Shown: piece by piece, positions 31,469 to 47,763 of the stretch
Layout: each line of letters opens with the position of its first letter
Numbering within the stretch: position 1 is the stretch's first letter
From: a virus
Lineage: Duplodnaviria; Caudoviricetes
Length of the DNA stretch: 64,000 bases
Virus record (IMG/VR): IMGVR_UViG_2858943916_000002
Coordinates: 1 to 64,000 of that record
Reading direction: 5' to 3' (one strand)
Position numbers and translations under genes: made by a program
Notes under the pieces: model-generated
The model's input: only the letters and a program-made list of their open reading frames with translations
Database searches by the model: none
Told to the model about the DNA's origin: nothing

Positions 31469-32068
31469 TTAAACGGTCAAGTAAACGCTGGAACCAGCCT
31501 CTGTCTGGATGTCAATCGGAAACTCCGCGCAGACAATGCATGCCTCCCGCATTTGAGTATCCAGACGATGCAAGGCGGCTCGACGCTTCCCTTCTACCAG
31601 CACCCGGTACGCGCCTCCGGCACGCTGTATGGCCGAATAAGGCAAGTCGAAGCGATCCGACAGATCACGCAGGCGCGGCCGGCCACGCAGGATATTGGTG
31701 ACCAGCAGGTCGGTCAGTTCACGCTCACAACTGTCGGCGAGCCCCTCCGGGTTAAGCCATTCCGAGATCCGACGTGCGCTGGCCGCCCCCTCTTCACCGG
31801 TTCCATACTGCGCCCGCAGGATGTGGAAGCCCACGCTATCGCCCAGCGTCCGCTCCATCAGCTTGACGATGAACACGGCCTGCGCGTGCCACTCATGCGG
31901 CGTCAGTCCTGATAGGGCCTTGCGCTCGTACTCGACGTCGAACCGCTCGCGCAGGGCCTCGCAGACCAACTGCGTCGGGTTCTTCGGCTCGATGGGCATG
32001 GCCAGCATCAAGTAGGCCACGGCGATCGCGTGCTCGGGGCACGAAAACGTTCCGGCTTCACGCGGCAT
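31469..32068 (-). CDS. late antiterminator Q-like protein
   Basis: lambdoid position after replication genes; GL.P.E.HAQA; AAGGAG RBS. Confidence 0.6.
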   Translation of the reverse strand: MPREAGTFSCPEHAIAVAYLMLAMPIEPKNPTQLVCEALRERFDVEYERKALSGLTPHEWHAQAVFIVKLMERTLGDSVGFHILRAQYGTGEEGAASARRISEWLNPEGLADSCERELTDLLVTNILRGRPRLRDLSDRFDLPYSAIQRAGGAYRVLVEGKRRAALHRLDTQMREACIVCAEFPIDIQTEAGSSVYLTV

Positions 32069-32558
32069 TCTTTACTCCTTTCAAATTCTCCAGCTCACAG
32101 CCTGGCTGTATCGGGCGGGTATAGACAGCCAAGCTCGGCACGCCCGGCTCGTCGTCCGAAAAATTTGTCGCGTACGGGTACCATTCCTGTTTCCACACGA
32201 GGAGGAATATATGAACAACCAAGTTCAGCAGCAGTTTGGCTTTCGGGTTGAAGATGCAGTAGAAACACCCTATGGTTGGACGGCCGCGTATTGGATCACT
32301 CGGCCTGGTGGGGCAGACCACGTTCGAGTAGATGTGCCTACGGTATTTCCAACATCCAAGGAGGCCGAAGAGAGTGCGCTCATGCGAGCCGAGGATCATC
32401 TTGCAGATGACTATGGCGGCATACGAAAGATCCGAGTTCCGCCAGCTCAACTCATGAGTTTTGGACCAAACGGTAAACGCTAAATGGAGCGCTGTACGCC
32501 CCTTTGACTGGCCGTCCGTTTCAAGGTTTATCAGGAGCGCCTTGGCCATTGAGTTCAT
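32058..32558 (-). CDS. 166-aa coupled ORF antisense to the 32211-32483 moron
   Basis: ATGA overlap upstream; overlaps Q start downstream. Confidence 0.45.
   Translation of the reverse strand: MNSMAKALLINLETDGQSKGRTALHLAFTVWSKTHELSWRNSDLSYAAIVICKMILGSHERTLFGLLGCWKYRRHIYSNVVCPTRPSDPIRGRPTIGCFYCIFNPKAKLLLNLVVHIFLLVWKQEWYPYATNFSDDEPGVPSLAVYTRPIQPGCELENLKGVKNAA
32211..32483 (+). CDS. hypothetical moron protein (90 aa)
   Basis: strong GAGGAGG RBS; globular composition. Confidence 0.75.
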   Translation: MNNQVQQQFGFRVEDAVETPYGWTAAYWITRPGGADHVRVDVPTVFPTSKEAEESALMRAEDHLADDYGGIRKIRVPPAQLMSFGPNGKR

Positions 32559-33034
32559 GCCAGGTCACTCACCAAATCCACGGCCCTGAACCAACTGCCA
32601 AGGCCCGCACCGGCCGATGCTCCCGCCGTGTCTCCGCGCGGCTGCGCTGACGCGCATTCGTCGCCAAGCACCCGCAGCATCAACGCCCCCAATGCCTGCG
32701 CGGTCACATTCCCGCTGGCCGCTTCCGCGAAGTCCTTGCGGCTGTGCCGGCTCAGCCAGGGAATCACGCTGTCCGGCACAGGCTGGCCGGGCAGCGCCGC
32801 CTTCAGGCGCCCAGCCAGGATGAACAGGCTTCGACGGTTGTGCATGCGAGCGGTGATGCCTGCCTGCTCCGCGTAGGCCGTGCCGTGGTGCAGATGGCAG
32901 TACCAGTCGGACACGCCGGTCGTGGTGTCAGCGATAGACCCGGGCAGCATGCAGCCCCTGACGCAGCACATGCCGTAGCCCTGGACCGGATGCTGGTGGC
33001 GGGTCACCGCCGCGGATGCCTCGGCGTAGCTCAT
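32555..33034 (-). CDS. hypothetical phage protein with Cys/His cluster
   Basis: ATGA-coupled to O; CCVRGC..WYCHLH. Confidence 0.75.
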   Translation of the reverse strand: MSYAEASAAVTRHQHPVQGYGMCCVRGCMLPGSIADTTTGVSDWYCHLHHGTAYAEQAGITARMHNRRSLFILAGRLKAALPGQPVPDSVIPWLSRHSRKDFAEAASGNVTAQALGALMLRVLGDECASAQPRGDTAGASAGAGLGSWFRAVDLVSDLA

Positions 33035-34020
33035 GCGGTTCGCTCCTGCTCATCACGCCGGCGACGCAGCTCGGCGAAGATCCGATCGCGGTAGCTGGCG
33101 TAGGTCTCGCCGCCCCGAGCAAACATGCCCAGTTCACGCCCCACGCGGTCCGTCGCCGCATCGGACTTCCACCACTCGCCCCAGTCCTGGCCGGTCTCGG
33201 CACGAGGCCCCACCGCGTTCGGCACGACGGGAGCGCGAGCTGTTCGCACGCGGTTTCGCCAGGTCGCCAGCCAGTCGAGCTTGCAGCCCTTCGCTCCTGG
33301 CACGGCGGTCCAGTAGTCGCGGAATTCGTCGGCCAGTACGCGCACCTGCTCGGCGGACAGGTCGGGCCGCAGGTCGAGCGCCGCCTTGCCCCAGGACATC
33401 GGCAGAACCCAGTCTGCCGGCAGGCGAGATCCACGCTTCGTGGTGCTGACAGTGTTACGGCTTTTAGAGGTATTACCTACGAAGATAGGTATTACCTCTT
33501 TCTTATGTTTTATTTCTGTAGGGAAAACTGGTACTGCTTCGGGTTTACCCAGGTGTCCCAAATTTGGTACTGCTTCGGGGTAAGCGGTACCAGTTTTGGG
33601 ACTGCTTCCCTCAAAATCATCGGAAGCTATCCCAATTTCGGTACCGCTTAGCTGTCCCAAATCTGGTACTGCTTGGGCTTCGGAAGCTGTCCCGTTTTCG
33701 GTACCGCTTTGCTGATCCGAAGCTGTACCAGAATTGGTACCGCTTGCTGGTTCGCACAGCCGGAACACGACCACCGACTTAGTGGCCCCTGCCCGCTCGC
33801 CGCTATCGACCAGGAAACCTGCGTCGATCAGCCGGCGCAGATTGGCGAGCACCGTCTTGCGGTCTTGCCCAGTCTGCTGCGCGATCAGGGTGGTGGATGC
33901 AAATGCGCTCCACGGCGCTTGCTTGCCGTGCGCATAATGCGCCAGTGCCACCAGAATGAACTTGGCTGGGGAATGGCAAACAGGCTGGGCCAATGCCCAA
34001 GCGACAGCTTGAGCACTCAT
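33031..34020 (-). CDS. lambda O-like replication initiator (N-terminal wHTH)
   Basis: AVAWAL..AKFILVALA...IA.QTG....V...L..L; internal iterons. Confidence 0.88.
   Translation of the reverse strand: MSAQAVAWALAQPVCHSPAKFILVALAHYAHGKQAPWSAFASTTLIAQQTGQDRKTVLANLRRLIDAGFLVDSGERAGATKSVVVFRLCEPASGTNSGTASDQQSGTENGTASEAQAVPDLGQLSGTEIGIASDDFEGSSPKTGTAYPEAVPNLGHLGKPEAVPVFPTEIKHKKEVIPIFVGNTSKSRNTVSTTKRGSRLPADWVLPMSWGKAALDLRPDLSAEQVRVLADEFRDYWTAVPGAKGCKLDWLATWRNRVRTARAPVVPNAVGPRAETGQDWGEWWKSDAATDRVGRELGMFARGGETYASYRDRIFAELRRRRDEQERTA
33521..33745. repeat. replication origin iterons inside O
   Basis: six 21-bp copies of (G/A)T(C/A)CC-N5-GG(T/G)AC(T/C)GCTT at 33555, 33587, 33629, 33654, 33689 and 33725, plus a partial copy at 33521, beside an AT-rich tract. 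Confidence 0.9.
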
Positions 34021-34340
34021 CGTCGTCCCCCAGGGGCCACAACCCTACCCTGCTCTACTACCGGTGCAACTCGTCCAATTCGTCCAGTGGCATTGCATTC
34101 ACCACACATTAGCTTTTGAGGTTCACCAGAATACAACCATGCCAGGAATGGTTTGCGCACCAACTCATGGAATCGGTCGCGCGCCATTTGATCCAGGTCG
34201 AGCTCGGCGCGCGACTCCACACCGGATACGCGACGAATGAACGCAGCGGCCTCATCGGCGCAGTGAACGCCAGCAAAAACCCAGAACTTCGGATTTCGAC
34301 TCAGCCGGACGGCCAGCCAGCAAATCGAATTGGCCTTCAT
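34017..34340 (-). CDS. hypothetical phage protein upstream of O
   Basis: GVESRAELD..FHELVRKPF; ATGA-coupled to O. Confidence 0.8.
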   Translation of the reverse strand: MKANSICWLAVRLSRNPKFWVFAGVHCADEAAAFIRRVSGVESRAELDLDQMARDRFHELVRKPFLAWLYSGEPQKLMCGECNATGRIGRVAPVVEQGRVVAPGGRR

Positions 34341-37300
34341 TCGATATGCTCGAGTAAATCCCCTGCGGCAACACCCCGCTCCTCCGGCCCCTTACGGCAT
34401 ACACTGTTGGCTCTCACTCTGAACAGACGGGAGACGACCGACCATGAAGAAGTTAATAGTTGCGCTGAGGTATGAGCCATCCGTTGCGTTGCTCTTCGGG
34501 ACGGCTGGCGTTGAATACCGCACAGATGGCGTTGTGGCTCCCGATGGGACGCAACTACCGGTGTGCCTATTACTCGTGGCATGCTCATCGGTTTCAGCCA
34601 CGGACCATGGCCTTGTACGACTGGAAATTCGCCCAAGAGAGGGCGACCGAGCGCTTCCGTTCTCAGCGGTCTCAGTCCCAGCAGCACTCCTTGCCTGGAG
34701 CATTGATTCAGGAAACGAGCGAGACTTCCCCGTGGGATTCCTACGTACCCAGGTCTAAGGCCGCGCATTGGCGTTGGGTGCAAGAGAACTTGATGCCGTA
34801 ACAGATACCCGCTACTCTTGATAGTTACTTTTCTGTTACATCCAAGCGGAGTTGAAAGTGAATCAAGAGCAACACGAACTACTTGTCCAAGCTCATCAGC
34901 AAATGCTGAACCTTGCTCAAATAAACGAGGTGCAAATGAAGTTGAGCATGTCGATGCGAGAAGATCTGATGGCGGCGCAAATTGCCCTGCGCGCAGTGTG
35001 CGAAGTTCTTTCTCCCGAGGGAAAACGGCTTGCGGCTGAGCACATCCGGGAATTCGGGGAAGAGTTTCGGGATCGATTTGCAAAGGACCACCCAGACCGG
35101 GCGATTGACGGGTTCTCAATTGCAATAAATGCCTATATAGAAGGCTTGGGAGCCGCCCCCATCGCCGAGGGTGTGAAGTAGGACGCACGACAAAAGCGAT
35201 TCGCCCATTCGCGCCTGCCAATCGCTGTTCAACTAGGAGATCGATTTGGATAACCCCGTCTATCGCTCCGCGATGGAAGGCCTGCAGGAAATGTATGGGC
35301 CTTTGTCTGGATGGCAAAGCAACGTAGGCGTTCGCACCAACACTTCGCCGAAGGGAAAAATCACCCTTTATCACGATCGAATCGCTTCCGGAAATAAGGC
35401 CGAGCTCGCGGTCGATCCTGAATCGATGGCCCGAGCGACCGGGCAAGGCGAAGACCAAGCCGAAGCTTTCATAAAACAACTGTCGCAGTTGACGGGGCGC
35501 GCCACCCTGACCCATGCAAGGTACAAATGGCCGCGGATCGGCTTGGCTGTGGACTCCGACGTGGAAGCAGTTTTGGAAGCTCTGCAAACTCTGTTCAATG
35601 AGGTGGCCTCGGACGCCCTCTCTTCGGATCCGTCGCCCAGCTACTGGTGGGTGAGCCACAACCAAATGCATCGCCGAGAGCTCAGCGGCGGCTACATCTG
35701 GTGTCCCCAGACCAAGAAAGGCGGCGGGGCGAGAGAAACCTGGACGAACGTATCTCGCGTGCGACGGGGAGACATCGTCTTTTCCTACGCAAAAACGAAG
35801 CTCCAAGCTGTTGGCGTTGCGCTTGGCGATGCACAGGAGGCAAGTGCTCCCAGCGAGGCGTATCACTCGTGGAACGATGCTGGATGGCGCGTGACAATCC
35901 AGTGGGAATCCCTTGGATCCCCGTTGTCTCCCAAAGAGCATTGGGACGAAATCGGCGACCTTTTCCCTGCTGTCCATTCGCCACTGCGCGAGGATGGCGG
36001 CGGAAACATGACATACCTGGCGGCGTTGAGCGTGCCTCTGGGTTTGAAGCTGCTGGACCTGATCGGCATGACGGACGACGACGCCCTCGCGAACGTTGAT
36101 CGGGAGATGGTCAAGGTGTCTGGCGTCGATAAGACCGAGGTTGAGCGGGTCTACCAAGCGCGTATAGGCCAAGGCACATATAGAAAGAACGTCATGTCCG
36201 TCGAACGCTACTGCCGCGTAACGGGTGTCAGCAATGTGGATCTGCTCATCGCGAGCCACATCAGGCCGTGGCGTCAAAGCTCGAACCAACAACGCCTCGA
36301 CGGCAACAATGGCCTGCTTCTCTCGCCTCACGTCGATAAGTTGTTCGACTCGGCCTGGATATCGTTTTCCGATCAGGGAGAGATCCTGGTTGCCAGCGGA
36401 GAGGTCAGAGAGGTGCTCATCGCCTGGGGCATTGACCCAGACATGAACGTAGGGCAATTCAATGAGGACCAAGAAAAATACTTGGCCTACCATCGAGACG
36501 TCCTTTTCTCGGAAAAGGCTAAGCAACCAGAAGAATGAGCGATCGGCCTCAATCGCAATCAGAAGAATCCACAAAGCACCTTGGATTGAACCTGGCTGAG
36601 TTCGTACGTAATCCCACCAACCTTCACTAGACTCCCTGCAGGGAGCTTCCACATACGCAGCGATTAATCGGGAGATTTGGTCAGAATGGCCCTCTACTTT
36701 TTGAGCTACGACTTGCGCAAATCCCGCAACTACCAACCGCTGTACGATGAACTGGCAAAGCTCGATGCCACTCGGGTCCTGGAATCCCTTTGGGCGTTCA
36801 AACTCGCCGACACCAATTGCACATACGTTCGGGACTATTTCCGTCAATTTATCGATGCAGACGATGGGTTGATCGTGACCCAAGCTGTCGACTGGGCAAC
36901 TTGGAACACGGATAAAGCCCCACCCAACACATAAGTCACGCCGTGCAGGAGGTAGCACCGCGCCCTCCTCCTGCCGGTCTAACGCCCGCGCCGCCTGTTC
37001 TAGATCAAGATGCGCATACTCAACTGGCGCCAATTTGACTTGGTCGGACACGTCGGGACGAATCCGCAACCTAGAATTGCCAACCAATTTGGCGGCCAGT
37101 TCCAGCCATATATGATCGGGATTCCCCAACCCCAACCATATGTGGAAGGAACTGACCATGGACCCGCAAGTAAGAGGACAATTGGCGACAATCACCTTCG
37201 CGCTTGGCAAACTCATCCGCTCGACCAGCCGTACCGCCGAACAGAGGCAAGACGAGGTGGAGCGGCTGCGGAGCTGGGCGGACCACCAGCTCAAAGAGGC

Positions 37301-37396
37301 ATATCGCGCGGGCGCAGATTCTGCCGGCCTCACGCCGGAGCAACAAGCCTTCCTGTCAGGAGTCCACGACACCGTAGACCAGTTGGCATGGCTCAT
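34337..37396 (-). CDS. 1019-aa ORF antisense to the defence island, ATGA-coupled at both ends; function unknown
   Basis: stop-free in the ORF track; junctions checked by hand; composition resembles antisense translation. Confidence 0.4.
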   Translation of the reverse strand: MSHANWSTVSWTPDRKACCSGVRPAESAPARYASLSWWSAQLRSRSTSSCLCSAVRLVERMSLPSAKVIVANCPLTCGSMVSSFHIWLGLGNPDHIWLELAAKLVGNSRLRIRPDVSDQVKLAPVEYAHLDLEQAARALDRQEEGAVLPPARRDLCVGWGFIRVPSCPVDSLGHDQPIVCIDKLTEIVPNVCAIGVGEFERPKGFQDPSGIELCQFIVQRLVVAGFAQVVAQKVEGHSDQISRLIAAYVEAPCRESSEGWWDYVRTQPGSIQGALWILLIAIEADRSFFWLLSLFREKDVSMVGQVFFLVLIELPYVHVWVNAPGDEHLSDLSAGNQDLSLIGKRYPGRVEQLIDVRREKQAIVAVEALLVRALTPRPDVARDEQIHIADTRYAAVAFDGHDVLSICALAYTRLVDPLNLGLIDARHLDHLPINVREGVVVRHADQVQQLQTQRHAQRRQVCHVSAAILAQWRMDSREKVADFVPMLFGRQRGSKGFPLDCHAPSSIVPRVIRLAGSTCLLCIAKRNANSLELRFCVGKDDVSPSHARYVRPGFSRPAAFLGLGTPDVAAAELSAMHLVVAHPPVAGRRIRREGVRGHLIEQSLQSFQNCFHVGVHSQADPRPFVPCMGQGGAPRQLRQLFYESFGLVFALPGRSGHRFRIDRELGLISGSDSIVIKGDFSLRRSVGANAYVALPSRQRPIHFLQAFHRGAIDGVIQIDLLVEQRLAGANGRIAFVVRPTSHPRRWGRLPSLLYRHLLQLRTRQSPGLGGPLQIDPETLPRIPGCAQPQAVFPREKELRTLRAGQFAPPSDLLASTCSTSFAPRLFEQGSAFADELGQVVRVALDSLSTPLGCNRKVTIKSSGYLLRHQVLLHPTPMRGLRPGYVGIPRGSLARFLNQCSRQGVLLGLRPLRTEALGRPLLGEFPVVQGHGPWLKPMSMPRVIGTPVVASHREPQRHLCGIQRQPSRRATQRMAHTSAQLLTSSWSVVSRLFRVRANSVCRKGPEERGVAAGDLLEHIE
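34444..34758 (+). CDS. hypothetical island protein (104 aa)
   Basis: GGGAG RBS; beta-rich composition. Confidence 0.7.
   Translation: MKKLIVALRYEPSVALLFGTAGVEYRTDGVVAPDGTQLPVCLLLVACSSVSATDHGLVRLEIRPREGDRALPFSAVSVPAALLAWSIDSGNERDFPVGFLRTQV
34852..35181 (+). CDS. hypothetical helical island protein (109 aa)
   Basis: GGAG RBS; amphipathic helices. Confidence 0.7.
   Translation: MKVNQEQHELLVQAHQQMLNLAQINEVQMKLSMSMREDLMAAQIALRAVCEVLSPEGKRLAAEHIREFGEEFRDRFAKDHPDRAIDGFSIAINAYIEGLGAAPIAEGVK
35246..36538 (+). CDS. EVE/PUA-like + HNH endonuclease (putative modification-dependent restriction)
   Basis: YWWV.HNQ...ELSGGYIWCPQ..RRGDIVFSY; RIGQG.YRK..CRVTG..LIASHIRPW..LDG.NGLLLSPHVDKLFD. Confidence 0.9.
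   Translation: MDNPVYRSAMEGLQEMYGPLSGWQSNVGVRTNTSPKGKITLYHDRIASGNKAELAVDPESMARATGQGEDQAEAFIKQLSQLTGRATLTHARYKWPRIGLAVDSDVEAVLEALQTLFNEVASDALSSDPSPSYWWVSHNQMHRRELSGGYIWCPQTKKGGGARETWTNVSRVRRGDIVFSYAKTKLQAVGVALGDAQEASAPSEAYHSWNDAGWRVTIQWESLGSPLSPKEHWDEIGDLFPAVHSPLREDGGGNMTYLAALSVPLGLKLLDLIGMTDDDALANVDREMVKVSGVDKTEVERVYQARIGQGTYRKNVMSVERYCRVTGVSNVDLLIASHIRPWRQSSNQQRLDGNNGLLLSPHVDKLFDSAWISFSDQGEILVASGEVREVLIAWGIDPDMNVGQFNEDQEKYLAYHRDVLFSEKAKQPEE
36686..36934 (+). CDS. stand-alone Cas2/VapD-like small protein
   Basis: YFLSYDL...Y..LY..L..L....LES.W..RD.....ID.DD.LIV. Confidence 0.7.
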   Translation: MALYFLSYDLRKSRNYQPLYDELAKLDATRVLESLWAFKLADTNCTYVRDYFRQFIDADDGLIVTQAVDWATWNTDKAPPNT

Positions 37397-37478
37397 CGAC
37401 TCCCCCGTTTACCCTCAGGGCCAAACGAGCGGTACATCCGCTCCGCGCAACGACGATCCCAGTCCTCCTGATCTCTGA
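37158..37478 (+). CDS. hypothetical helical island protein (106 aa)
   Basis: AAGGA RBS; helical composition. Confidence 0.7.
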   Translation: MDPQVRGQLATITFALGKLIRSTSRTAEQRQDEVERLRSWADHQLKEAYRAGADSAGLTPEQQAFLSGVHDTVDQLAWLIDSPVYPQGQTSGTSAPRNDDPSPPDL

Positions 37479-37548
37479 CGTCGCGGGTGTATCGGCGCAG
37501 CGCGGGCGTAATTAACCAGAGCAAGGCGCGGGCATACAGTTCACGCAT
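37393..37548 (-). CDS. 51-aa coupled ORF (MRELYARALLWLITPALRR...)
   Basis: hand-translated; ATGCGTGA overlap upstream, ATGA overlap downstream. Confidence 0.55.
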   Translation of the reverse strand: MRELYARALLWLITPALRRYTRDVRDQEDWDRRCAERMYRSFGPEGKRGSR

Positions 37549-37897
37549 GGCAGCCCCCACTCGCGTCGGTATCTGGCGACTGCTCTTTGAACTTGCGCTC
37601 CCAGCCGATCACGAGGTAGCCAAACGGTCGGCTCCACTCCGTCACACCGGCTGGCGGGACCGCGCCAGGAATGATCTCGGCCAACTCATATGTGAACCGC
37701 CCTGCGACATCGCCAACGGGTCGAAAGGTGGCATAGCCAATGTGGTTGCCGGCGCCATCACGTAGGCGCATGCCCAAGAGCGTCGGAGCTTCAGGGCGCA
37801 TTTTTGGCCCCTCAAGCACCAGTCGAACGCCACCGCGGCCCGCAGGCTCGAGCCAGGCGTTGATATCGAGGTCAGCGTAGGTTCGGAATTCACGCAT
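37541..37897 (-). CDS. hypothetical phage protein (118 aa)
   Basis: AAGGAG RBS; overlapped at both ends. Confidence 0.7.
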   Translation of the reverse strand: MREFRTYADLDINAWLEPAGRGGVRLVLEGPKMRPEAPTLLGMRLRDGAGNHIGYATFRPVGDVAGRFTYELAEIIPGAVPPAGVTEWSRPFGYLVIGWERKFKEQSPDTDASGGCHA

Positions 37898-38153
37898 TGG
37901 AGGCTCCTTGCTGCGAATGGGCGCCCTGCCCCTTCCCCTTAAACTGGCTGCTCTCACACAAACCATCCTTGGGAAAGGAGCTGGGCATGGAAAAAACGGC
38001 GCGGCAGCAGTTCGACGACCTGCTGAAGGAATCGCACTTCTTCAACGATTCGATCAACACGGCAAAGCGAGCCGCTGGATACGCGGCCGGGCAAATCCTC
38101 GGCGCCCTCATCGAAGGGGATGTCACCATGTACGAAAAGCTCAAGCGACTCAT
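37890..38153 (-). CDS. 87-aa coupled ORF antisense to 37987-38328
   Basis: ATGA overlap upstream, ATGCGTGA overlap downstream. Confidence 0.4.
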   Translation of the reverse strand: MSRLSFSYMVTSPSMRAPRICPAAYPAARFAVLIESLKKCDSFSRSSNCCRAVFSMPSSFPKDGLCESSQFKGKGQGAHSQQGASNA

Positions 38154-38328
38154 GGCCGAAGACTTCCAGCGAGACTCGGACCAAGGCCCGAGCCTGGACA
38201 GTGCAGCTCGGCTGGTGCTCCATGGAATTCAGCAGGGACTCGATTCGGTTGCGCGTCCAAGCGCGCGGCTGCAGCAGACGCGGCAGCGTTCGGCCGCGCG
38301 GTCGCCGGGGAACCCAGCCGCCGACTGA
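37987..38328 (+). CDS. hypothetical island protein (113 aa)
   Basis: AAGGAG RBS; helical composition. Confidence 0.7.
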   Translation: MEKTARQQFDDLLKESHFFNDSINTAKRAAGYAAGQILGALIEGDVTMYEKLKRLMAEDFQRDSDQGPSLDSAARLVLHGIQQGLDSVARPSARLQQTRQRSAARSPGNPAAD

Positions 38329-38428
38329 TCGCTACCATCACCAGCGCACGTTGCATGGCGCGCCTGATCTGCGGCGGCCCGAAAGCCTTGGCGCCCTTCT
38401 CGCGCCCATATCCAGCCCGATTACGCAT
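38150..38428 (-). CDS. 92-aa ORF coupled to cro
   Basis: ATGCGTAA overlap with cro stop, GGAG upstream. Confidence 0.45.
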   Translation of the reverse strand: MRNRAGYGREKGAKAFGPPQIRRAMQRALVMVAISRRLGSPATARPNAAASAAAARLDAQPNRVPAEFHGAPAELHCPGSGLGPSLAGSLRP

Positions 38429-38708
38429 GGCTTGGCTCCTGCGGCGCGGCCGCGGCCAGCTCCGGCCAGAGACGCCCGTAGTCATTGGGCCGCAAGTCCT
38501 GGCGGCGGCATTCGCCATCGGTGATCAATTCAATGTCCGCAGCGATAAGGCCGGCGAGCTTATAGCCGTAAGCGACCTGGCGGAGGTATCCCACCGACGT
38601 GCCACGTTGGCGACAGCGTGCCTGCGCTTCCAGCTTGGGGGTCTTCCTCAACCACTGGAGCAAAGGCTCCACTGGCACTCTTGTTCGGGATAAGGGTTGT
38701 TGACTCAT
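38421..38708 (-). CDS. cro: Cro-like repressor
   Basis: GTSVGYLRQVAYG HTH..IE..T.G....DLRP; divergent from cI. Confidence 0.85.
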   Translation of the reverse strand: MSQQPLSRTRVPVEPLLQWLRKTPKLEAQARCRQRGTSVGYLRQVAYGYKLAGLIAADIELITDGECRRQDLRPNDYGRLWPELAAAAPQEPSHA

Positions 38709-38717
38709 CCTAAAACA

Positions 38718-38779
38718 TTACCGCAGGGTAATTATTTTGACAAGAAAAATTTACCCCTGGGTTGTTTACCTGCGGGTAG
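38718..38779. promoter_or_regulatory. three cro/cI operators
   Basis: TTACCGCAGGGTAA (38718), TTACCCCTGGGTTG (38751), TTACCTGCGGGTAG (38766). Confidence 0.85.
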
Positions 38780-38801
38780 CTGTCAGGCAACACTTCACAC
38801 C

Positions 38802-39179
38802 ATGGAAATTGACGATATCTACGCAGTCCGCCTTCAGCGCTTTCGGACCCTGATGGACGACCGGTTCGGCGGCAAACAAGCCGCGATCGCTACTGCGGTT
38901 GGCAAGCCAGCCAACTATGTTTCCCGCATCATCAGCGGGAATAAAAAGCTGGGCGAAGAAATCGTCCGGGAATTCGAGACATCCCTGGACCTTCCCGCGT
39001 ATTGGTTTGACGGGCTAACCGATACAACGGCATGGCCCTTCCCTAGCGTCAGCCGAGCGGCGTATGAGTCGCTTACGCCCGAACAACGCCGTGGCATCGA
39101 ACAATGGGTTGCTAGGCAAGTGGAAGCATTCGGCGACACGCACACGCCGGGCGCGGGTAACTCCAAAAAGAGCGCCTAG
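38802..39179 (+). CDS. cI: CI-like repressor lacking an S24 peptidase domain (125 aa)
   Basis: R..RFRTL..FGGKQAAIA..VGK.ANYVSRIISG..GE...R.FE..L.LP.YWFD; short WPF C-terminal domain. Confidence 0.88.
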   Translation: MEIDDIYAVRLQRFRTLMDDRFGGKQAAIATAVGKPANYVSRIISGNKKLGEEIVREFETSLDLPAYWFDGLTDTTAWPFPSVSRAAYESLTPEQRRGIEQWVARQVEAFGDTHTPGAGNSKKSA

Positions 39180-39207: not shown

Positions 39208-39495
39208 TCAGTCTACGTAGATCGGTTCCCCTGCAAGGGTAGGCTCGCGCTGCTGCGCAGCCGCGTCCTGAATTGCGTACCGCAATTGAACGATCTCCCT
39301 GCGCGTCAGAAAATCTGGCATCCCAATCGTGGCCAACAGCGCCAACGGGCCGAGCACCACTCCCCATAAGAACCAGCACGCTCCGCATGCCCCTTTGGCA
39401 TTGGCGATGTGATGCGCCAGGAATGCTGAAACGAACCAGGAGGCCACCAATAGGATGGCCCAGATCGAAGTAAGCAGAAACGCCAACACCGTCAT
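39208..39495 (-). CDS. small membrane protein
   Basis: AAGGAG RBS; two TM segments. Confidence 0.75.
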   Translation of the reverse strand: MTVLAFLLTSIWAILLVASWFVSAFLAHHIANAKGACGACWFLWGVVLGPLALLATIGMPDFLTRREIVQLRYAIQDAAAQQREPTLAGEPIYVD

Positions 39496-39667: not shown

Positions 39668-40015
39668 ATGGAAGTTACCCAAACCGTCAGCGCATGGCTG
39701 ACGCCCACCAGCCTGACCTCGCCCGACGAGATCACCGATCCGAACAAGGTCCGCCTCGGCGACCTGTCCTACACCAACCTGGACATGACCGAGTGCGGCT
39801 ACACGCTGATCGGCAAGGCCCGCATCACCCTGGCACTGCCTGACCGCGAACGACTGATCGATTCCAAGGTGGCGTCGATGCGAGCGGAAGTGAAGAAGAT
39901 CCGCGCCGAGGCCGAAGCGAAGGCCTGCCACATCGAAAACCAGATCAGCAACCTGCTGGCGATCGAGCTCAGCCCGGCGCCGGCATCTGAATCTGACCGC
40001 ACCGAGGGGAACTGA
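39668..40015 (+). CDS. hypothetical early protein (115 aa)
   Basis: AGGAG RBS; coiled-coil C-terminus. Confidence 0.8.
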   Translation: MEVTQTVSAWLTPTSLTSPDEITDPNKVRLGDLSYTNLDMTECGYTLIGKARITLALPDRERLIDSKVASMRAEVKKIRAEAEAKACHIENQISNLLAIELSPAPASESDRTEGN

Positions 40016-40016
40016 C

Positions 40017-40394
40017 ATGTCGAACATGTCTATTCCTACCCCATGCGGCACGGCCGCGATCCTTCGCCCCTACAACGACGAGGAACGCCGCGCAGAGCTG
40101 ATGCAAGACCTTGGCGGCGACGTGCATTTGGCGCTGTGCCGCGATCAGTTGATCCACCGCGAATACGACTTCAGCCAGCGCGCCGCCGAAGCGCTCTACG
40201 CCGCGACCGAAGGCAATCAGCTGGCCGAGGACGCATTCGCACTGGTGGTGCGCTCGGCCGTGGCACGGGATCCGCTGGCGGTGGTGGGGCTTCTCTTCCG
40301 CCAGTGGCTTGACCTGGCGGTCCGGCAACTGACCGCGGATCTTGCGGACCGGTGCGAAGACGGCCAGCGCGTGACCTTCGGGGCCCGCCAATGA
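40017..40394 (+). CDS. hypothetical early protein (125 aa)
   Basis: operon position, GAGGG RBS. Confidence 0.7.
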   Translation: MSNMSIPTPCGTAAILRPYNDEERRAELMQDLGGDVHLALCRDQLIHREYDFSQRAAEALYAATEGNQLAEDAFALVVRSAVARDPLAVVGLLFRQWLDLAVRQLTADLADRCEDGQRVTFGARQ

Positions 40395-40492
40395 CCGCCC
40401 TGCTCCTCTTCATCCTGGGTGGCCTGTGCGCCGCCTATCCCCTGGGCCTGCTCGGGGATGCCTGGATGGCCTACCGGCGGAGGTCTGCATGA
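40391..40492 (+). CDS. 33-aa hydrophobic ORF
   Basis: hand-translated MTALLLFILGGLCAAYPLGLLG...; ATGA overlaps at both ends. Confidence 0.6.
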   Translation: MTALLLFILGGLCAAYPLGLLGDAWMAYRRRSA

Positions 40493-40686
40493 TCCGCCGG
40501 CTGCGCAACCTCTGGCACCGCGCCCGCGTTTCCGGCCGAGACCTGGACTTCGCCGGCGTCGCCGCGATCTTCGCCGGCGCGGTGGTGCTGCTGGCCAGCG
40601 GCATGGTCGGCCCGACGCGCGACGCCCACTCCCCCACTCCCACCGCCCATGACGGGCGCCCGACGGCATACGCCGCGAAGGACTGA
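40489..40686 (+). CDS. 65-aa single-TM protein
   Basis: GGAGG RBS; ATGA overlap. Confidence 0.6.
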   Translation: MIRRLRNLWHRARVSGRDLDFAGVAAIFAGAVVLLASGMVGPTRDAHSPTPTAHDGRPTAYAAKD

Positions 40687-40688
40687 TC

Positions 40689-41666
40689 GTGAACGCTATT
40701 TCTGAACCTATCGCCCTGGATCGCACACGCTTCCTCGGCGGCACCGACATGGCCGCGCTGTACGGCGTCAGCAAGTGGAAGACTCCCCTGCAGGTGTGGG
40801 CCGAAAAGACCCGCCGTGATGCCTACCGCGAAGACGACCCGGCCAAGACGAAGGTGCTCAACCGCGGCAAGCGCCTTGAACCGGTCGTGGTGGCCATGCT
40901 GCGCGAGGACTACGGCCTGGACGTTGTCGCCGTGAACGAACGCTACACGCACCCCGACCACACCTTCCTGTCGGTCGAGATCGACTTCGAGTGGCGCGTC
41001 ACCGAGCAGGCCCTGGCGGCATTCCCCTGGCTCGCTCCCCTTGAGCTGGGCTCGATCCAGAACGGCGAGGTCAAGACCGTGCATCCGTTCGTCGCCCACG
41101 AGTGGGGCGACATGGGAACCGACGACGTGCCGATTCACTATGCGGCGCAGTCCATGACCGGCTTGGCCGTCACCGGCCGCGACGTGTGCCTCTACGCCAC
41201 GCTGGTAGGCGTGGATGACCTGACCTTCTACGCGGTGCGCCGCGACCAGGAGACGATCGACGCGATGGTCGCCAAGGCCGTGGACTTCTGGACCAACCAC
41301 GTCCTGACCGACATCCCACCCAATCCCGAAACGTTCGACGACCTGAAGTTTCTCTACGCCCGCGACAACGGCCAAGCGATCGAGGCAACCGACGAGATCC
41401 TGGCCCAGCTCGCCGAGTTTCGCGAGCTCAGCGACCAGGCCAAGCGCATCGAGGAACGCCGCGACGAGCTCAAGTTCGGCATCCAGACGTTTATGGAGCC
41501 CAACGCCATTCTGACGGCCAAGGGCGGGCCGGTGGCCACCTGGAAAAGCCAGTCCGCCAGCCGCCTGGACGGCAAGGCCCTGGCGCTGGCTCGCCCCGAT
41601 ATCGCCGCCGCCTACCGCACCACATCCGAAACCCGAGTCTTCCGCCTGAAAGGAGCGAAGAAATGA
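40689..41666 (+). CDS. YqaJ/lambda-exonuclease-family recombination nuclease
   Basis: R..FLGGTD.AA..G.SKWKTP..VW.EK; GKRLEP; GEVKT; Y..Q. Confidence 0.92.
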   Translation: MNAISEPIALDRTRFLGGTDMAALYGVSKWKTPLQVWAEKTRRDAYREDDPAKTKVLNRGKRLEPVVVAMLREDYGLDVVAVNERYTHPDHTFLSVEIDFEWRVTEQALAAFPWLAPLELGSIQNGEVKTVHPFVAHEWGDMGTDDVPIHYAAQSMTGLAVTGRDVCLYATLVGVDDLTFYAVRRDQETIDAMVAKAVDFWTNHVLTDIPPNPETFDDLKFLYARDNGQAIEATDEILAQLAEFRELSDQAKRIEERRDELKFGIQTFMEPNAILTAKGGPVATWKSQSASRLDGKALALARPDIAAAYRTTSETRVFRLKGAKK

Positions 41667-42685
41667 GCGCATCCAAATTGAAAGCCGTGGCCACAGGCCA
41701 AGCACAGTCCCAACAACTGGCCAGCATGAAACCGAAGGACCAGATCGCCCACCTGCTGGAAAAGCGCAAGGGCGAGATCCAGAAGATGCTGCCCAAGCAC
41801 CTTTCCGCTGATCGCCTGCTCAAGGTCGCGCAGATCGCCGCCACCACCACGCCGGCCCTGGCCGAATGCGACATCCCGTCGCTGGTGGGCGCCATCGGTC
41901 AGTGCGCGCAGATGGGATTGGAGCCCAATACCGTCCTCGGCCATGCCTACCTCGTCCCGTTCAACACCAAGCGCAAGGACGCCGGCGGCAATGAGCGCTG
42001 GGTGAAGTCGGTGCAGGTGATCGTTGGCTACAAGGGCCTGATCGACCTGGCCCGCCGCTCCGGCCAGATCGTGAGCATCGCCGCCCACGAAGTCTGCGAG
42101 AACGACACCTTCGACCTGGTGTATGGCCTGGACGAGAAACTGGAGCACCGGCCGGCCATGGGCGAACGTGGCGCCGTCACCGGCTTCTATGCCGTCGCGA
42201 AGCTCGTAGGCGGCGGCCATGCCTTCGAATTCATGAGCCTGTACCTGATTGACCAGATCAAAGCGGCAACGCAAAGCAAGGGCGCCTACGGCCCCTGGAA
42301 GGACAACTTCGTGGAGATGGGCCGCAAGACCGTGATTCGCCGGCTGGCCAAGTACCTGCCGCTGTCCATCGAATTCCAGAAGGCGACGGCCCTCGACGAA
42401 ATGGCCAGCAGCGGCCGCGACCAGCACCTGGACGACAACACGCTCGACGGCGATTTCATCTTCGCCCAACCCGAGCCTGGGGCCGACCAGGCAGAGGCAG
42501 GCGATGGCGCGCCGCAACAGCTTGCCTATGACCCGGCGCCCGTGCTGGCGCAGATCGCCAGCGCCACGAACATCGACGCCCTGGACCTCGTCGCCGACGG
42601 TTTCCGCGACGCGCCGGACGAGCACTACGACGCGCTCAAGAAGGCCTACGACGCCCGCCGAGCGGCGCTGGATCCGGCCGCTTAG
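41663..42685 (+). CDS. recT: RecT single-strand annealing protein
   Basis: LPKHL..DR; GLEP...GHAYLVPF; GYKGLI.LARRSG; M.RKTVIRRL.KYLPLS. Confidence 0.95.
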   Translation: MSASKLKAVATGQAQSQQLASMKPKDQIAHLLEKRKGEIQKMLPKHLSADRLLKVAQIAATTTPALAECDIPSLVGAIGQCAQMGLEPNTVLGHAYLVPFNTKRKDAGGNERWVKSVQVIVGYKGLIDLARRSGQIVSIAAHEVCENDTFDLVYGLDEKLEHRPAMGERGAVTGFYAVAKLVGGGHAFEFMSLYLIDQIKAATQSKGAYGPWKDNFVEMGRKTVIRRLAKYLPLSIEFQKATALDEMASSGRDQHLDDNTLDGDFIFAQPEPGADQAEAGDGAPQQLAYDPAPVLAQIASATNIDALDLVADGFRDAPDEHYDALKKAYDARRAALDPAA

Positions 42686-42778
42686 CCGTTCTCCCTGGGC
42701 GGCGCCTCACCAAATGGAGGCACCCCCTGGCGCCGCCCGCCCCACTACCCAGCGATCTCAAAACCCATAGGTGAACAC

Positions 42779-43144
42779 ATGGGAGCATTTTGCGTATACG
42801 GAATGACCGAGCAGCTCGCGAAGAAAGCCGCCGAGCGGGCTTGGCAAAAATATAAGGAATCCATGACCGCGGATGTTCGCGCGTGCCTGCGGCCATCCGA
42901 CCAGGCCGACTGGATCAAGGTCAAGACGGAGTACCACCTGGCCAAGGGCAATCCTGTCCAGCTATCGGCACCGTTCGATGCACCACAGTTCGCCCGCGAG
43001 TTCATCAAGCTCGCCGCGGCCACAGGCCGAACCTCACGGCTGTGCATCATGCAGCGCGGCCCGAAGCTCGATAAGCACGGAGCGCCCCGAATCAGCAAGG
43101 CCACCAAGCGCCCGATGATCACCTGGGTTCCCTATCCGCGATAG
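42779..43144 (+). CDS. hypothetical protein (121 aa)
   Basis: AGGTG RBS; high-GC codon pattern. Confidence 0.7.
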   Translation: MGAFCVYGMTEQLAKKAAERAWQKYKESMTADVRACLRPSDQADWIKVKTEYHLAKGNPVQLSAPFDAPQFAREFIKLAAATGRTSRLCIMQRGPKLDKHGAPRISKATKRPMITWVPYPR

Positions 43145-43181
43145 CGCACACGACGTATCACCTATCCCTATCGGAGCCTAC

Positions 43182-43970: not shown

Positions 43971-44034
43971 ATGCTTCCAAGGCGACGAGCCCGAACAGCG
44001 AAATCCAATCCCGACAGGGCAATGGGAGCGAAGA

Positions 44035-44700: not shown

Positions 44701-44779
44701 GGAGTGTCAGCATGAACGACCGTCAAAGCAACGAACACGTCCAAGCGGGAATCCTGCTGCTCGACTACCTGGAGGTTAG

Positions 44780-45010
44780 ATGCTCACACTCACAAATGAA
44801 GAGCTGATCGAACTGACCGGGAAGGCCAGAAAGGCTGGCCAGATCGAAGCCCTCAGATTCCTCACTATCCCGTTCAAGATTCGCCCGGATGGCACCCCTG
44901 TGGTCCTTCGGGCCGCTATGGAGGCAGCACTAGGCCATGCGCCCAAGAACCAAGGATCGACACCTCCCCGCGTGCGTGTACCAGAAGCACGGCGCATACT
45001 GGTACGTTAA
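44780..45010 (+). CDS. excisionase-like protein (DUF4224-like)
   Basis: LT.EELIELTG....Q...L....IPF..RPDG.PVV; GGAGG RBS; overlaps int. Confidence 0.85.
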   Translation: MLTLTNEELIELTGKARKAGQIEALRFLTIPFKIRPDGTPVVLRAAMEAALGHAPKNQGSTPPRVRVPEARRILVR

Positions 45011-45905: not shown

Positions 45906-45913
45906 GCACACAG
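45898..45913. promoter_or_regulatory. putative LexA (SOS) box
   Basis: CTGTATAAGCACACAG matches CTGT-N8-ACAG. Confidence 0.5.
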
Positions 45914-47636: not shown

Positions 47637-47763
47637 AGCGGCAGACGGCTGCTCTGTTCCACGCGGTGCGTCGGGCGCCGCTGGCACCCATCCGGCAAGG
47701 CCACCGTGAAAAAGCATACGATCGGTTATCCTCCGCAGCAAAAACCACGAGGATGAATCGAAC

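What the first reader, a model, noticed from the sequence alone, without database searches (positions are those of the whole stretch)
31469..38708. Unbroken 7.2-kb relay of coupled ORFs from cro to Q, running antisense over seven inserted genes
Seen: on the minus strand every stop overlaps the next start. The order is cro 38708-38421, 92 aa 38428-38150, 87 aa 38153-37890, 118 aa 37897-37541, 51 aa 37548-37393, 1019 aa 37396-34337, 107 aa 34340-34017, O 34020-33031, 159 aa 33034-32555, 166 aa 32558-32058, Q 32068. Six junctions are ATGA, three are ATGCGT(A/G)A and one is ATGCCGCGTGA, so no base between cro and Q is outside an ORF. Seven RBS-bearing plus-strand genes lie underneath. Established: untranslated RNA invites Rho termination, and lambda bypasses this with N; no N-like gene was recognised here. 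Inference: morons are tolerated in this essential early operon only if their antisense strand stays ribosome-covered (anti-polarity cover ORFs). The same transcript could also silence the phage's own defence genes during lysis.
Basis: partly seen in the sequence, partly recalled or inferred. Interest (0 to 1): 0.92.

Follow-up and report, generated by a model that had tools for sequence, protein, structure and literature searches.

The report
Stop-free bridge frames over backward phage genes
In this Achromobacter prophage, accessory genes sit backwards inside the early operon, and the operon's own strand is kept as an unbroken chain of startable but meaningless reading frames across them, apparently so that ribosomes never leave the transcript that must reach the replication and late-activator genes.

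Summary
From cro (38708) to the stop of a Q-type antiterminator gene (31469), eleven minus-strand ORFs overlap stop-on-start: ATGA six times, ATGCGT(A/G)A three times, ATGCCGCGTGA once.

- **The frames are not genes.** The 1019-, 92-, 87- and 51-aa ORFs, and probably the 166-aa ORF, have non-coding codon statistics, no family, and peptides that drift neutrally. They lie antisense to real plus-strand cargo: an EVE-HNH-like nuclease, a Cas2-like phrog_1090 protein and small genes.
- **The chain is not chance or GC composition.**
  - Such a relay never crosses 2.3-3.2 kb of antisense strand elsewhere in the contig.
  - It survives 0 of 1000 synonymous recodings.
  - Cargo lacks TTA/CTA/TCA only where those codons would be cover-frame stops.
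  - No stop-creating variant is seen among 269 accepted substitutions (about 12 expected).
  - Cover starts carry Shine-Dalgarno sequences.
- **It replicates.** The relay recurs over different cargo in eight close relatives, a diverged phage (L031), a second phage family, and a second prophage on this contig. It is broken in a disrupted prophage and absent over cI.

Selection for translatability is well supported. Protection from Rho polarity is the likeliest reason but is untested.

This scan noted the same design earlier on other DNA (Stenotrophomonas, Janthinobacterium-type and Rhodobacteraceae prophages). I found no published description.

The parts
38697..39179 (+). cI-like repressor, divergent from cro (probable ATG start near 38802). 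It lies outside the PR transcript and serves as the matched negative control.
   Evidence: phrog_5736/phrog_8 transcriptional regulator. It has 4 TTA/CTA/TCA codons, stops in all three operon-strand frames, and is not traversable.
38421..38708 (-). cro-like first gene of the early-right operon (95 aa). Its 3' end holds a conserved SD + ATGCGTAA 'socket' that starts the first cover ORF.
   Evidence: phrog_35 8e-8. Junction and SD.
38150..38428 (-). Cover ORF, 92 aa, antisense to cargo 37987-38328 and not codon-aligned with it.
   Evidence: Codon score -0.30, no family. SD -6.6 kcal/mol.
37890..38153 (-). Cover ORF, 87 aa. It takes over by an ATGA overlap inside the cargo gene and ends in ATGCGTGA on the 118-aa gene.
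37987..38328 (+). Cargo gene, 113 aa, slot A, function unknown. Other genes replace it in relatives.
   Evidence: Positive codon score. Conserved in L003/L029/L030. AGGAG SD.
37541..37897 (-). Real operon gene, 118 aa, conserved in the family. Its 3' end holds the second SD + ATGCGTGA socket.
   Evidence: Conserved at 92-99% in relatives. Codon score +0.09 and protein-like sequence.
37393..37548 (-). Cover ORF, 51 aa.
   Evidence: (SD -8.4).
34337..37396 (-). Cover ORF, 1019 aa, spanning the four- or five-gene cargo block. It starts at an ATGA junction with a GGGGGAG SD inside cargo gene 37158-37478 and ends ATGA on the 107-aa gene.
   Evidence: Codon score -0.34 per codon. No Pfam/PHROG/PADLOC family. 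Only two database matches, both equivalent Achromobacter ORFs. 25% synonymous substitutions.
37158..37478 (+). Cargo gene, 106 aa (112 aa from 37140), function unknown, not codon-aligned with the cover frame.
   Evidence: Positive codon score. A variant allele occurs in L002/L028/L030.
36677..36934 (+). Cargo gene, 82-85 aa, phrog_1090, weakly Cas2-like, codon-aligned with the cover ORF.
   Evidence: phrog_1090 1.7e-15. Pfam CRISPR_Cas2 2e-4, below cut-off. 0 TTA/CTA/TCA.
35246..36538 (+). Cargo gene, 430 aa. HNH_2 nuclease; residues 132-422 match PDB 6YEX. Codon-aligned with the cover ORF.
   Evidence: Pfam HNH_2 3e-11. PADLOC HNH 1.9e-23. PDB 6YEX 1.7e-66. GC3 phase. 0 of 64 Leu/Ser(TCN) codons are TTA/CTA/TCA.
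34852..35181 (+). Cargo gene, 109 aa, function unknown, not codon-aligned. The relay survives 0.3% of synonymous permutations of this gene alone.
34444..34758 (+). Possible cargo gene, 104 aa. Unproven; it could instead be the cargo promoter/leader region.
   Evidence: Protein-like translation and a GGGAG upstream, but a negative codon score and no family.
34017..34340 (-). Real operon gene, 107 aa. Weak SD of its own; start coupled by ATGA to the 1019-aa cover ORF.
   Evidence: phrog_19763 4e-12. SD -2.2.
33031..34020 (-). Replication initiator, O-like, 329 aa.
   Evidence: HTH_36 and 14 PHROG replication-initiation/primosomal families down to 7e-22.
32555..33034 (-). Conserved operon gene, 159 aa, used as the anchor to collect relatives.
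32058..32558 (-). Probable third cover ORF, 166 aa, codon-aligned over plus ORF 32211-32483.
   Evidence: No family. 6 synonymous: 13 non-synonymous differences to L003, against 72% synonymous in real operon genes.
32211..32483 (+). Probable cargo gene, 90 aa.
   Evidence: GAGGAGG SD 6 nt before the ATG and a protein-like translation. No family.
31469..32068 (-). Q-type antiterminator (AlpA family), 199 aa. The relay ends at its stop codon.
   Evidence: PDB 7XYA chain G AlpA, E 4.5e-21, residues 8-181. AlpA is an antiterminator (PMC7969949, PMC9371919).

Best explanation
This is the early-right operon of a lambdoid Achromobacter prophage. It runs from cro through the O-like replication initiator to an AlpA/Q-type antiterminator. 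Three slots hold accessory 'cargo' genes that point backwards, in the same direction as the repressor gene. Across each cargo block the operon strand carries peptide-neutral cover ORFs. Each starts at an ATG, usually with a Shine-Dalgarno sequence, overlapping the previous stop. Each stays stop-free across the cargo and ends on the start codon of the next real gene. Selection keeps these frames open and startable but ignores the encoded peptide, so what matters is the act of translation. The likeliest benefit applies after induction. Ribosomes then follow RNA polymerase without a break through 4 kb of otherwise untranslated, pyrimidine-richer antisense RNA. This prevents polarity (Rho-dependent termination, and possibly decay of naked RNA), so that O and Q are expressed. 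Shown: the anatomy, the selection signatures, the replication in relatives and the negative controls. Inferred: that the frames are translated, that Rho is the agent, and that PR is the only promoter feeding O and Q.
For: (1) The relay is exact. (2) The cover ORFs are non-coding by codon statistics, while cargo is coding and has homologs. (3) Empirical null: 0/474 (3.2 kb) and 0/550 (2.3 kb) antisense windows of ordinary, higher-GC3 gene clusters in the same contig are crossed by such a relay. (4) Synonymous recoding: 0/1000 survive; the per-gene product is about 1e-6. Independent cargo blocks in relatives survive 0-3.5% of recodings with a control codon table. (5) Codon-specific signature: cargo codons aligned with a cover frame have 1/416 TTA/CTA/TCA although other A-ending codons are 19.8%. 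Non-aligned cargo codons have 22/129, cI genes 16/122 and control genes 37/687. (6) Among 269 accepted substitutions in close relatives, about 12.4 stop-creating ones are expected and effectively none is seen. Synonymous share is 25% for cover peptides, 59% for cargo and 72% for real operon genes. (7) 7 of 12 non-redundant cover starts have SD pairing of -6 kcal/mol or stronger, against 7% of random antisense ATGs. (8) Replication: eight close relatives with different cargo; L031 with an HNH only 66% identical; a second prophage on this contig; a distant Achromobacter phage family. (9) Negative controls: the disrupted prophage L068 is not bridged and cI is not bridged. (10) The relay ends exactly at the Q-type antiterminator gene. 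(11) RNA over cargo is less purine-rich (0.48 vs 0.52-0.53) with more C>G windows (11-13% vs 3-6%). Rho/NusG terminate untranslated, including antisense, transcripts (PMC11551753).
Against: O has a good SD of its own, so translational coupling alone is not needed for it, and a promoter in front of O cannot be excluded, because the promoter scan is a crude sigma-70 consensus. Some bridges in relatives use GTG/TTG starts and longer overlaps (L030, L004 slot A, the second prophage). The permutation null is uninformative where the cover is codon-aligned. The aligned-codon depletion is partly circular, because an open frame has no stops by construction; it therefore measures only how improbable the openness is. 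The compositional hint for Rho is modest and absent in L004. Whether an N-like system exists was not tested.
Confidence: 0.6

Rival explanations
1. The frames must be translated, but not because of Rho. Continuous translation could be needed for termination-reinitiation coupling, to deliver ribosomes to downstream genes with weak ribosome-binding sites. It could also shield the long early mRNA from RNase E decay, or from pairing with cargo mRNA and RNase III cleavage.
For: All junctions are classic coupling overlaps of 1, 4 or 8 nt. The 107-aa gene and the alternative O-type gene of L028 have weak SDs (-2.2 and -2.5 kcal/mol). Overlapping transcription in excludons leads to RNase III-mediated degradation (PMC12288877).
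Against: O, the 159-aa gene and the Q-like gene have good SDs of their own, so they do not need reinitiation. Ribosomes on one strand would not obviously prevent duplex formation with cargo mRNA. No test here separates this reading from the Rho reading.
Confidence: 0.27
2. These are ordinary shadow ORFs: long antisense frames that arise by chance in a GC-rich genome and were picked out by a scan of many windows.
For: The contig is 63% GC and full of 200-560-aa shadow ORFs. Individual short genes are antisense-traversable in roughly 40% of cases. Codon-aligned frames stay open under within-gene codon permutation.
Against: The cargo has lower GC3 (0.55-0.74) than the genes used for the null, yet the relay is longer than any in the null. 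Three of five cargo genes in the window are crossed in non-aligned frames, and recoding breaks those. The avoided codons are common in the same cargo where they do no harm, and in cI. There are no stop-creating substitutions and SD sequences are enriched. The pattern replicates over unrelated cargo in 10 or more phages.
Confidence: 0.04
3. The long minus-strand ORFs are real overlapping protein-coding genes whose products have a function.
For: Long antisense ORFs have been reported as translated and under purifying selection in Pseudomonas aeruginosa (bioRxiv 10.1101/2021.02.09.430400). One equivalent ORF is annotated as a hypothetical protein in A. xylosoxidans NH44784-1996.
Against: Substitutions in the cover frames are 25% synonymous, about the random expectation. 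There is no family in Pfam, PHROGs or PADLOC. Only two matches turn up in 5.8 billion proteins, both the same locus type. The composition is typical antisense 'garbage'. Unrelated cover ORFs occupy the same position in relatives.
Confidence: 0.03
4. The open frames are a by-product of cassette exchange. Cargo modules recombine at conserved junction sequences and simply bring along whatever lies on the other strand, while O and Q are driven by their own promoter.
For: The family is highly mosaic, with conserved junction 'sockets' (SD + ATGCGTRA after cro and after the 118-aa gene; ATGA at the next gene) flanking exchangeable cargo.
Against: Recombination at sockets explains the junctions but not kilobases of stop-free sequence, the codon-specific depletion, or the lack of stop-creating substitutions.
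Confidence: 0.04

Closest known systems
Ambigrammatic narnaviruses (reverse ORF of Culex narnavirus 1; PMC8316113, PMC8155312)
   Same: A kilobase-scale stop-free frame lies on the strand opposite a real gene, in the codon-aligned register, and is achieved by avoiding the three codons whose complement is a stop. The reverse peptide is not conserved as a protein. Translation itself, or ribosome cover of the RNA, is proposed as the function.
   Different: Those are RNA viruses of eukaryotes in which both genome strands are involved. Here it is a DNA prophage, and the frames belong to a polycistronic transcript. They are linked by bacterial SD/ATG stop-start coupling and hop between frames. They also cross cargo in non-aligned registers and bridge intergenic DNA. 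The proposed threat (Rho polarity) is specific to bacteria.
Translationally coupled early operons of lambdoid phages, with polarity suppression by N or Q antitermination (lambda PR: cro-cII-O-P-nin-Q; my own knowledge)
   Same: Divergent repressor and cro, an O-like initiator, a Q-type antiterminator at the end, and ATGA-type overlaps between successive genes.
   Different: In lambda all genes of the operon point the same way, and read-through of terminators is secured by N/nut. Here backward genes interrupt the operon and the continuity is supplied by non-genic frames. No N-like function was recognised, and this was not tested.
Shadow ORFs / long antisense ORFs of GC-rich genomes (e.g. bioRxiv 10.1101/2021.02.09.430400)
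   Same: Long ORFs antisense to real genes in a GC-rich genome, partly in the codon-aligned frame.
   Different: Length, junction precision, SD sequences, use of non-aligned frames, codon-specific depletion and conservation of openness all exceed compositional expectation. The peptide is not under purifying selection, unlike claimed overlapping genes.
Excludons (PMC7154746, PMC12288877)
   Same: One long transcript is antisense to oppositely oriented neighbour genes and at the same time is the mRNA for genes beyond them. Mutually exclusive expression is therefore expected: cargo in the lysogen, the operon after induction.
   Different: Excludon overlaps are described as untranslated UTRs. Here the overlapping stretch is organised as translatable, coupled ORFs. 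No transcript data exist for this locus.
Leader peptides and upstream ORFs whose translation, not product, matters (trp and pheA-type attenuation, tnaC and Rho; my own knowledge)
   Same: A reading frame is maintained for the effect of the translating ribosome on transcription of downstream genes.
   Different: Those are tens of codons long and regulatory. These run up to 1019 codons, are constitutive parts of the operon, and overlie real genes on the other strand.

Membership tests
Lambdoid early-right (PR-type) operon | Divergent repressor and cro-like gene at the head of the operon | tested here: met
   38697-39179(+) matches phrog_5736/phrog_8 regulators. 38708-38421(-) matches phrog_35.
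Lambdoid early-right (PR-type) operon | Replication initiator (O-like) downstream of cro | tested here: met
   HTH_36 plus PHROG replication-initiation families down to 7e-22.
Lambdoid early-right (PR-type) operon | Q-type late antiterminator as the last gene | tested here: met
   The 199-aa protein matches PDB 7XYA_G AlpA, E 4.5e-21. There is no Pfam/PHROG hit.
Lambdoid early-right (PR-type) operon | N/nut-type antitermination of the early transcript | not tested
N proteins and nut sites are too divergent for the searches used.
Compositional shadow ORFs of GC-rich genomes | ORF lies in the codon-aligned antisense register of a real gene | tested here: inconclusive
   True for 35246-36538, 36677-36934 and 32211-32483. 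Not true for 34852-35181, 37158-37478 and 37987-38328.
Compositional shadow ORFs of GC-rich genomes | Length is explained by the codon usage of the overlapped gene and by genome composition | tested here: not met
Compositional shadow ORFs of GC-rich genomes | Openness is not conserved among relatives; stops appear freely | tested here: not met
   0 effective stop-creating variants against 12.4 expected. The frames are open in all intact relatives.
Ambigrammatic (reverse-ORF) genomes | Avoidance of the codons whose reverse complement is a stop (TTA, CTA, TCA) in the forward gene | tested here: met
   1/416 in aligned cargo codons against 22/129 in non-aligned cargo and 16/122 in cI.
Ambigrammatic (reverse-ORF) genomes | The reverse peptide is not under protein-level selection | tested here: met
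   25% synonymous in cover frames against 59% in cargo.
Ambigrammatic (reverse-ORF) genomes | RNA virus in which one reverse ORF spans nearly the whole genome segment | tested here: not met
   This is a DNA prophage. Several coupled ORFs bridge only the backward genes.
Ambigrammatic (reverse-ORF) genomes | Translation of the reverse frame shown by ribosome profiling or mass spectrometry | not testable with these tools
Antisense overlapping protein-coding genes | Purifying selection on the overlapping protein, and homologs beyond the locus | tested here: not met
Excludon | A long transcript overlapping oppositely oriented genes that also serves as mRNA for downstream genes | not testable with these tools
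   The gene layout fits. No RNA data are available.

The most novel reading that the evidence does not exclude
A general design rule of temperate phages that lack N-type early antitermination. A gene can sit backwards inside an early operon only as an 'ambigrammatic cassette', with its other strand stop-free and plugged into conserved SD-ATG...ATGA coupling sockets. Ribosomes must then escort RNA polymerase across it to escape Rho. This would (i) filter which defence or accessory genes phages can carry there, and shape their codon usage. It would (ii) produce large nonsense polypeptides during lytic growth. It would (iii) make Rho a hidden arbiter of prophage cargo, and give cargo silencing by the same transcript for free.
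Probability: 0.45. Interest if true: 0.9.

Novelty: new variant of a known kind. Interest (0 to 1): 0.82.

Why it matters
If ribosome cover is what lets an operon be read through backward genes, four things follow.

- **Phage genome architecture.** A constraint that has not been described would become visible and testable: which accessory or defence genes can be inserted where, and why their codon usage lacks three specific codons.
- **Annotation.** It would explain a class of large 'hypothetical proteins' in GC-rich prophages that are not proteins in any useful sense. One equivalent ORF is deposited as a 915-aa protein in A. xylosoxidans.
- **A DNA-phage parallel.** It would be a counterpart to the ambigrammatic narnaviruses, where translation rather than product is thought to matter.
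- **A tractable test system.** It offers a natural setting for studying transcription-translation coupling and Rho polarity in a betaproteobacterium. The experiment is sharp: stops that are silent for the cargo should be polar on O and Q.

Tried and rejected
- **Phage records.** megablast of the region and tblastn of the 1019-aa ORF against 50,697 phage records gave no match.
- **Promoter/terminator scan.** Counts were no higher than in shuffles (2 vs 3.2 promoters; 11 vs 8.4 terminators). It neither shows nor excludes a promoter before O.
- **Within-gene synonymous permutation.** Uninformative for codon-aligned cargo, which survives 100% by construction. A control codon table had to be used there.
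- **Lenient relay definition.** With any of ATG/GTG/TTG and overlaps up to 30 nt, the relay also crosses about 500 nt of cI in L069/L070 through tiny ORFs. It is therefore too permissive for short stretches, and I rely on the strict definition and on long blocks.
- **First recoding script.** It had a boundary bug: the native sequence failed because O's stop lay outside the slice. This was corrected.
- **WIN vs L003 over the 166-aa ORF.** Only 19 differences. That is enough to say the ORF is not constrained like real operon genes, but not enough to prove that the plus 90-aa ORF is a gene.
- **Family searches for small cargo.** Nothing above threshold in Pfam, PHROGs or PADLOC for the small cargo genes (34444, 34852, 37158, 37987, 32211).
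- **Considered and rejected.** That the plus ORFs are the shadows and the 1019-aa ORF the gene. This is contradicted by the HNH, phrog_1090 and phrog_3983 homology, GC3 phase, codon score and substitution pattern.

Full report
**What is there.**
- The window belongs to a 90-kb viral contig of 63% GC. Close relatives lie in Achromobacter ruhlandii and A. dolens genomes.
- At 38.7 kb a cI-like repressor (plus strand) and a cro-like gene (minus strand) diverge.
- On the minus strand, eleven ORFs run from cro to 31469. Every stop overlaps the next ATG.
The chain breaks right after 31469.
- The labels hold. The 329-aa protein is an O-like replication initiator. The last, 199-aa protein matches the solved structure of AlpA (PDB 7XYA_G, E 4.5e-21), a Q-like antiterminator of P. 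aeruginosa (PMC7969949, PMC9371919).

**Which strand codes.**
- The 1019-aa ORF has no Pfam, PHROG or PADLOC family. Its codon score is -0.34 per codon, and its composition is rich in Arg, Ser, Pro and Leu, as antisense frames typically are.
- It has only two matches among 5.8 billion proteins. Both are the equivalent ORFs of Achromobacter prophages, and one is deposited as a 915-aa hypothetical protein.
- Real plus-strand genes lie underneath:
  - A 430-aa HNH_2 nuclease: Pfam 3e-11, PADLOC 1.9e-23, PDB 6YEX 1.7e-66 over residues 132-422. From memory, 6YEX is the EVE-HNH enzyme VcaM4I.
  - An 85-aa phrog_1090 protein that is weakly Cas2-like.
  - Three small genes with positive codon scores and ribosome-binding sites.
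- GC3 phase supports plus-strand coding.
- The 92-, 87- and 51-aa ORFs are likewise non-coding frames over cargo.
- The 166-aa ORF is probably a third bridge over a plus 90-aa gene with a GAGGAGG SD.
- Cro, the 118-aa, 107-aa, O-like, 159-aa and Q-like genes are real.
- The layout is therefore an early operon interrupted at three places by backward genes that point the same way as cI.

**Is it more than chance?** The contig is GC-rich and full of shadow ORFs, so I built several nulls.

*(a) Empirical null.* I tested antisense strands of ordinary gene clusters of the same contig, whose GC3 is higher and therefore more permissive. An ATG-only relay with overlaps of 14 nt or less crosses:

| Window length | Windows crossed |
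|---|---|
| 500 nt | 25% |
| 1 kb | 8% |
| 1.5 kb | 1.2% |
| 2.3 kb | 0/550 |
| 3.2 kb | 0/474 |

Here the relay crosses 3.2 kb plus 0.5 kb.

*(b) Synonymous recoding of the five cargo genes.*
- The strict relay survives 0/1000 recodings, both under within-gene permutation and under a control codon table.
- The lenient relay survives 3.1% and 0% respectively.
- The per-gene product is about 1e-6.

*(c) Codon signature.* Counts of TTA/CTA/TCA among Leu and Ser(TCN) codons:

| Codon set | TTA/CTA/TCA |
|---|---|
| Cargo codons aligned with a cover frame (2,754 codons, 14 genes across the family) | 1/416 |
| Cargo codons not aligned with a cover frame | 22/129 |
| Adjacent cI genes (same strand, same GC3, outside the operon) | 16/122 |
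| Control genes | 37/687 |

  - Other A-ending four-fold codons make up 19.8% in the aligned cargo.
  - This test is partly circular, since an open frame has no stops by construction. It therefore quantifies how improbable the openness is: about 40-70 such codons would be expected.

*(d) Evolution among close relatives.*
- Of 269 accepted substitutions within cover frames, 12.4 are expected to create a stop.
- The one candidate sits in a multi-substitution patch where the relative's own codon is not a stop.
- The synonymous share is 25% in cover frames, 59% in cargo and 72% in real operon genes.

*(e) Ribosome-binding sites.* 7 of 12 non-redundant cover starts pair with the anti-SD at -6 kcal/mol or stronger. 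Only 7% of random antisense ATGs do so, and 33% of annotated genes.

**Replication and controls.** Searches with the O-like protein, the HNH protein and the 159-aa protein recovered a mosaic family.

| Locus | Cargo crossed | Bridging ORFs (aa) |
|---|---|---|
| L001 | same HNH block | 883 |
| L002, L070 | 95/246/64-aa genes | 145 + 389 + 48 |
| L004 | two membrane-like genes | 491 |
| L028, L029, L069 | phrog_3983 + short HNH | 124 + 643 |
| L030 | 163/437/220-aa genes | 142 + 225 + 794 |

- In every intact member the relay from cro to beyond O is unbroken, although the cargo differs.
- Recoding these blocks with the control table gives 0-3.5% survival at the native stringency.
- In L031 the phage has another immunity region and an HNH only 66% identical. 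There, 2.3 kb of cargo is bridged by 391- and 389-aa frames with ATGA, GTGA and ATGA junctions.
- The second prophage on this contig bridges its cargo. So does a distant Achromobacter phage family, in which the anchor protein is 41-44% identical. In both, different small cargo genes after cro are crossed by frames that end ATGA on the next real gene.
- Negative controls:
  - In L068, integrase genes of another element sit directly before O and are not bridged.
  - cI is strictly traversable in only 1 of 7 phages.
- Not all bridges are equally tidy. L030, slot A of L004 and the second prophage use TTG/GTG starts or overlaps of 20-50 nt.

**How it most likely works.**
- Shown: selection keeps the operon strand open, startable and coupled across backward genes, and does not care about the peptide.
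- Inferred: the frames are translated after induction, and the benefit is continuity of ribosomes behind RNA polymerase.
- Rho with NusG terminates nascent transcripts that are not being translated, antisense RNAs included (PMC11551753). Pyrimidine-rich nascent RNA is the vulnerable kind (PMC13323073).
- The operon-strand RNA over cargo is less purine-rich (0.48 vs 0.52-0.53) and has more C>G windows (11-13% vs 3-6%) in four of five phages.
- The relay stops exactly at the gene for the Q-type antiterminator. Beyond that point, polymerase would be protected by other means.
Translational reinitiation, protection from RNases, or avoidance of duplexes with cargo mRNA would leave the same sequence signatures, and I cannot separate them here.
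- O, the 159-aa gene and the Q-like gene have good SDs of their own, so pure reinitiation coupling is not required for them. The 107-aa gene has a weak one.
- Silencing of cargo by the same transcript (excludon logic; PMC7154746, PMC12288877) is plausible and untested.

**An anatomical detail.**
- The 3' ends of cro and of the 118-aa gene each contain a conserved SD followed by ATGCGT(A/G)A. The gene after each slot begins ATGA.
- The slots therefore have fixed 'sockets' on the operon strand, and a cargo cassette must supply an open frame between them.
- Where the register does not fit, the relay hops frame at an internal ATGA inside the cargo gene (38153-38150; 37396-37393).

**Comparison with what is known.**
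- The closest analogue is the ambigrammatic narnaviruses. Their reverse ORF is kept open by avoiding the same three codons, does not look like a functional protein, and must be translated for persistence (PMC8316113, PMC8155312).
- The present case differs in five ways: a DNA phage, bacterial stop-start coupling, several frames that hop register, bridging of non-aligned genes and intergenic DNA, and a bacterial rationale.
- It is not an ordinary shadow ORF and not an overlapping protein gene (see the membership tests).
- Seven literature searches found no description of such bridging frames in phage operons. The library lacks most subscription journals, so this is not proof of absence.
- Earlier notes of this same scan describe the same design in Stenotrophomonas, Janthinobacterium-type and Rhodobacteraceae prophages. 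These are AI notes that I did not re-test, and I count them as leads, not as evidence.

**Verdict.**
- I rate it a new variant of a known kind (frames whose translation, not product, matters) and of high interest. It is statistically robust, recurs across phage families, and suggests a sharp experiment.

Noticed in passing
window 43924-44700 (+) over 44050-44682 (-): The early-left operon (plus strand, 39668-48684) also contains one backward gene, a 210-aa membrane-like protein. A 258-aa ATG ORF with an antisense-type, non-protein-like composition covers it completely. The junctions are looser: a 47-nt overlap upstream and a 236-nt gap before the next gene at 44937.
   Followed up: partly
contig 77102-81622 (outside the window, same contig): A second lambdoid early region, from a different phage family, with cro at 81622-81269. 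A real 72-aa backward gene (80471-80689) is bridged by a 224-aa TTG ORF (81121-80447) that ends ATGA on the next real gene.
   Followed up: yes
L068:6060-8944: In A. ruhlandii LMG 1866 one copy of this prophage type is cut off directly upstream of O by tyrosine-integrase genes of another element. The relay is broken there, which makes it a natural negative control.
   Followed up: partly
L031:6001-7289 (+): In this diverged phage the HNH gene is split into a 105-aa N-terminal ORF and a 325-aa ORF that overlap by 4 nt. In L028, L029 and L069 the N-terminal ~130 residues are replaced (334-aa form). The N-terminal domain therefore looks like a separable module.
   Followed up: no
L001:6719-6760: This metagenomic relative lacks the cI gene and the first codons of cro (about 960 bp missing relative to the window) but keeps the cargo and the 883-aa cover ORF. 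It may be a clear-plaque-type or defective variant.
   Followed up: no
protein P0001 (A. xylosoxidans NH44784-1996): A cover ORF equivalent to the 1019-aa frame is deposited in public databases as a 915-aa 'hypothetical protein'. Gene callers can prefer the cover frame to the real small cargo genes.
   Followed up: partly
window 38428-38421 and 37548-37541: Conserved coupling 'sockets': an SD plus ATGCGT(A/G)A at the 3' ends of cro and of the 118-aa gene, shared across relatives whatever cargo follows. They may also be the points where cargo cassettes are exchanged.
   Followed up: partly
window 39208-39495 (-): A 95-aa hydrophobic ORF on the operon strand lies just beyond cI, convergent with it, and is conserved in L028 and L030. 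Its function is unknown and it is not part of the relay.
   Followed up: no
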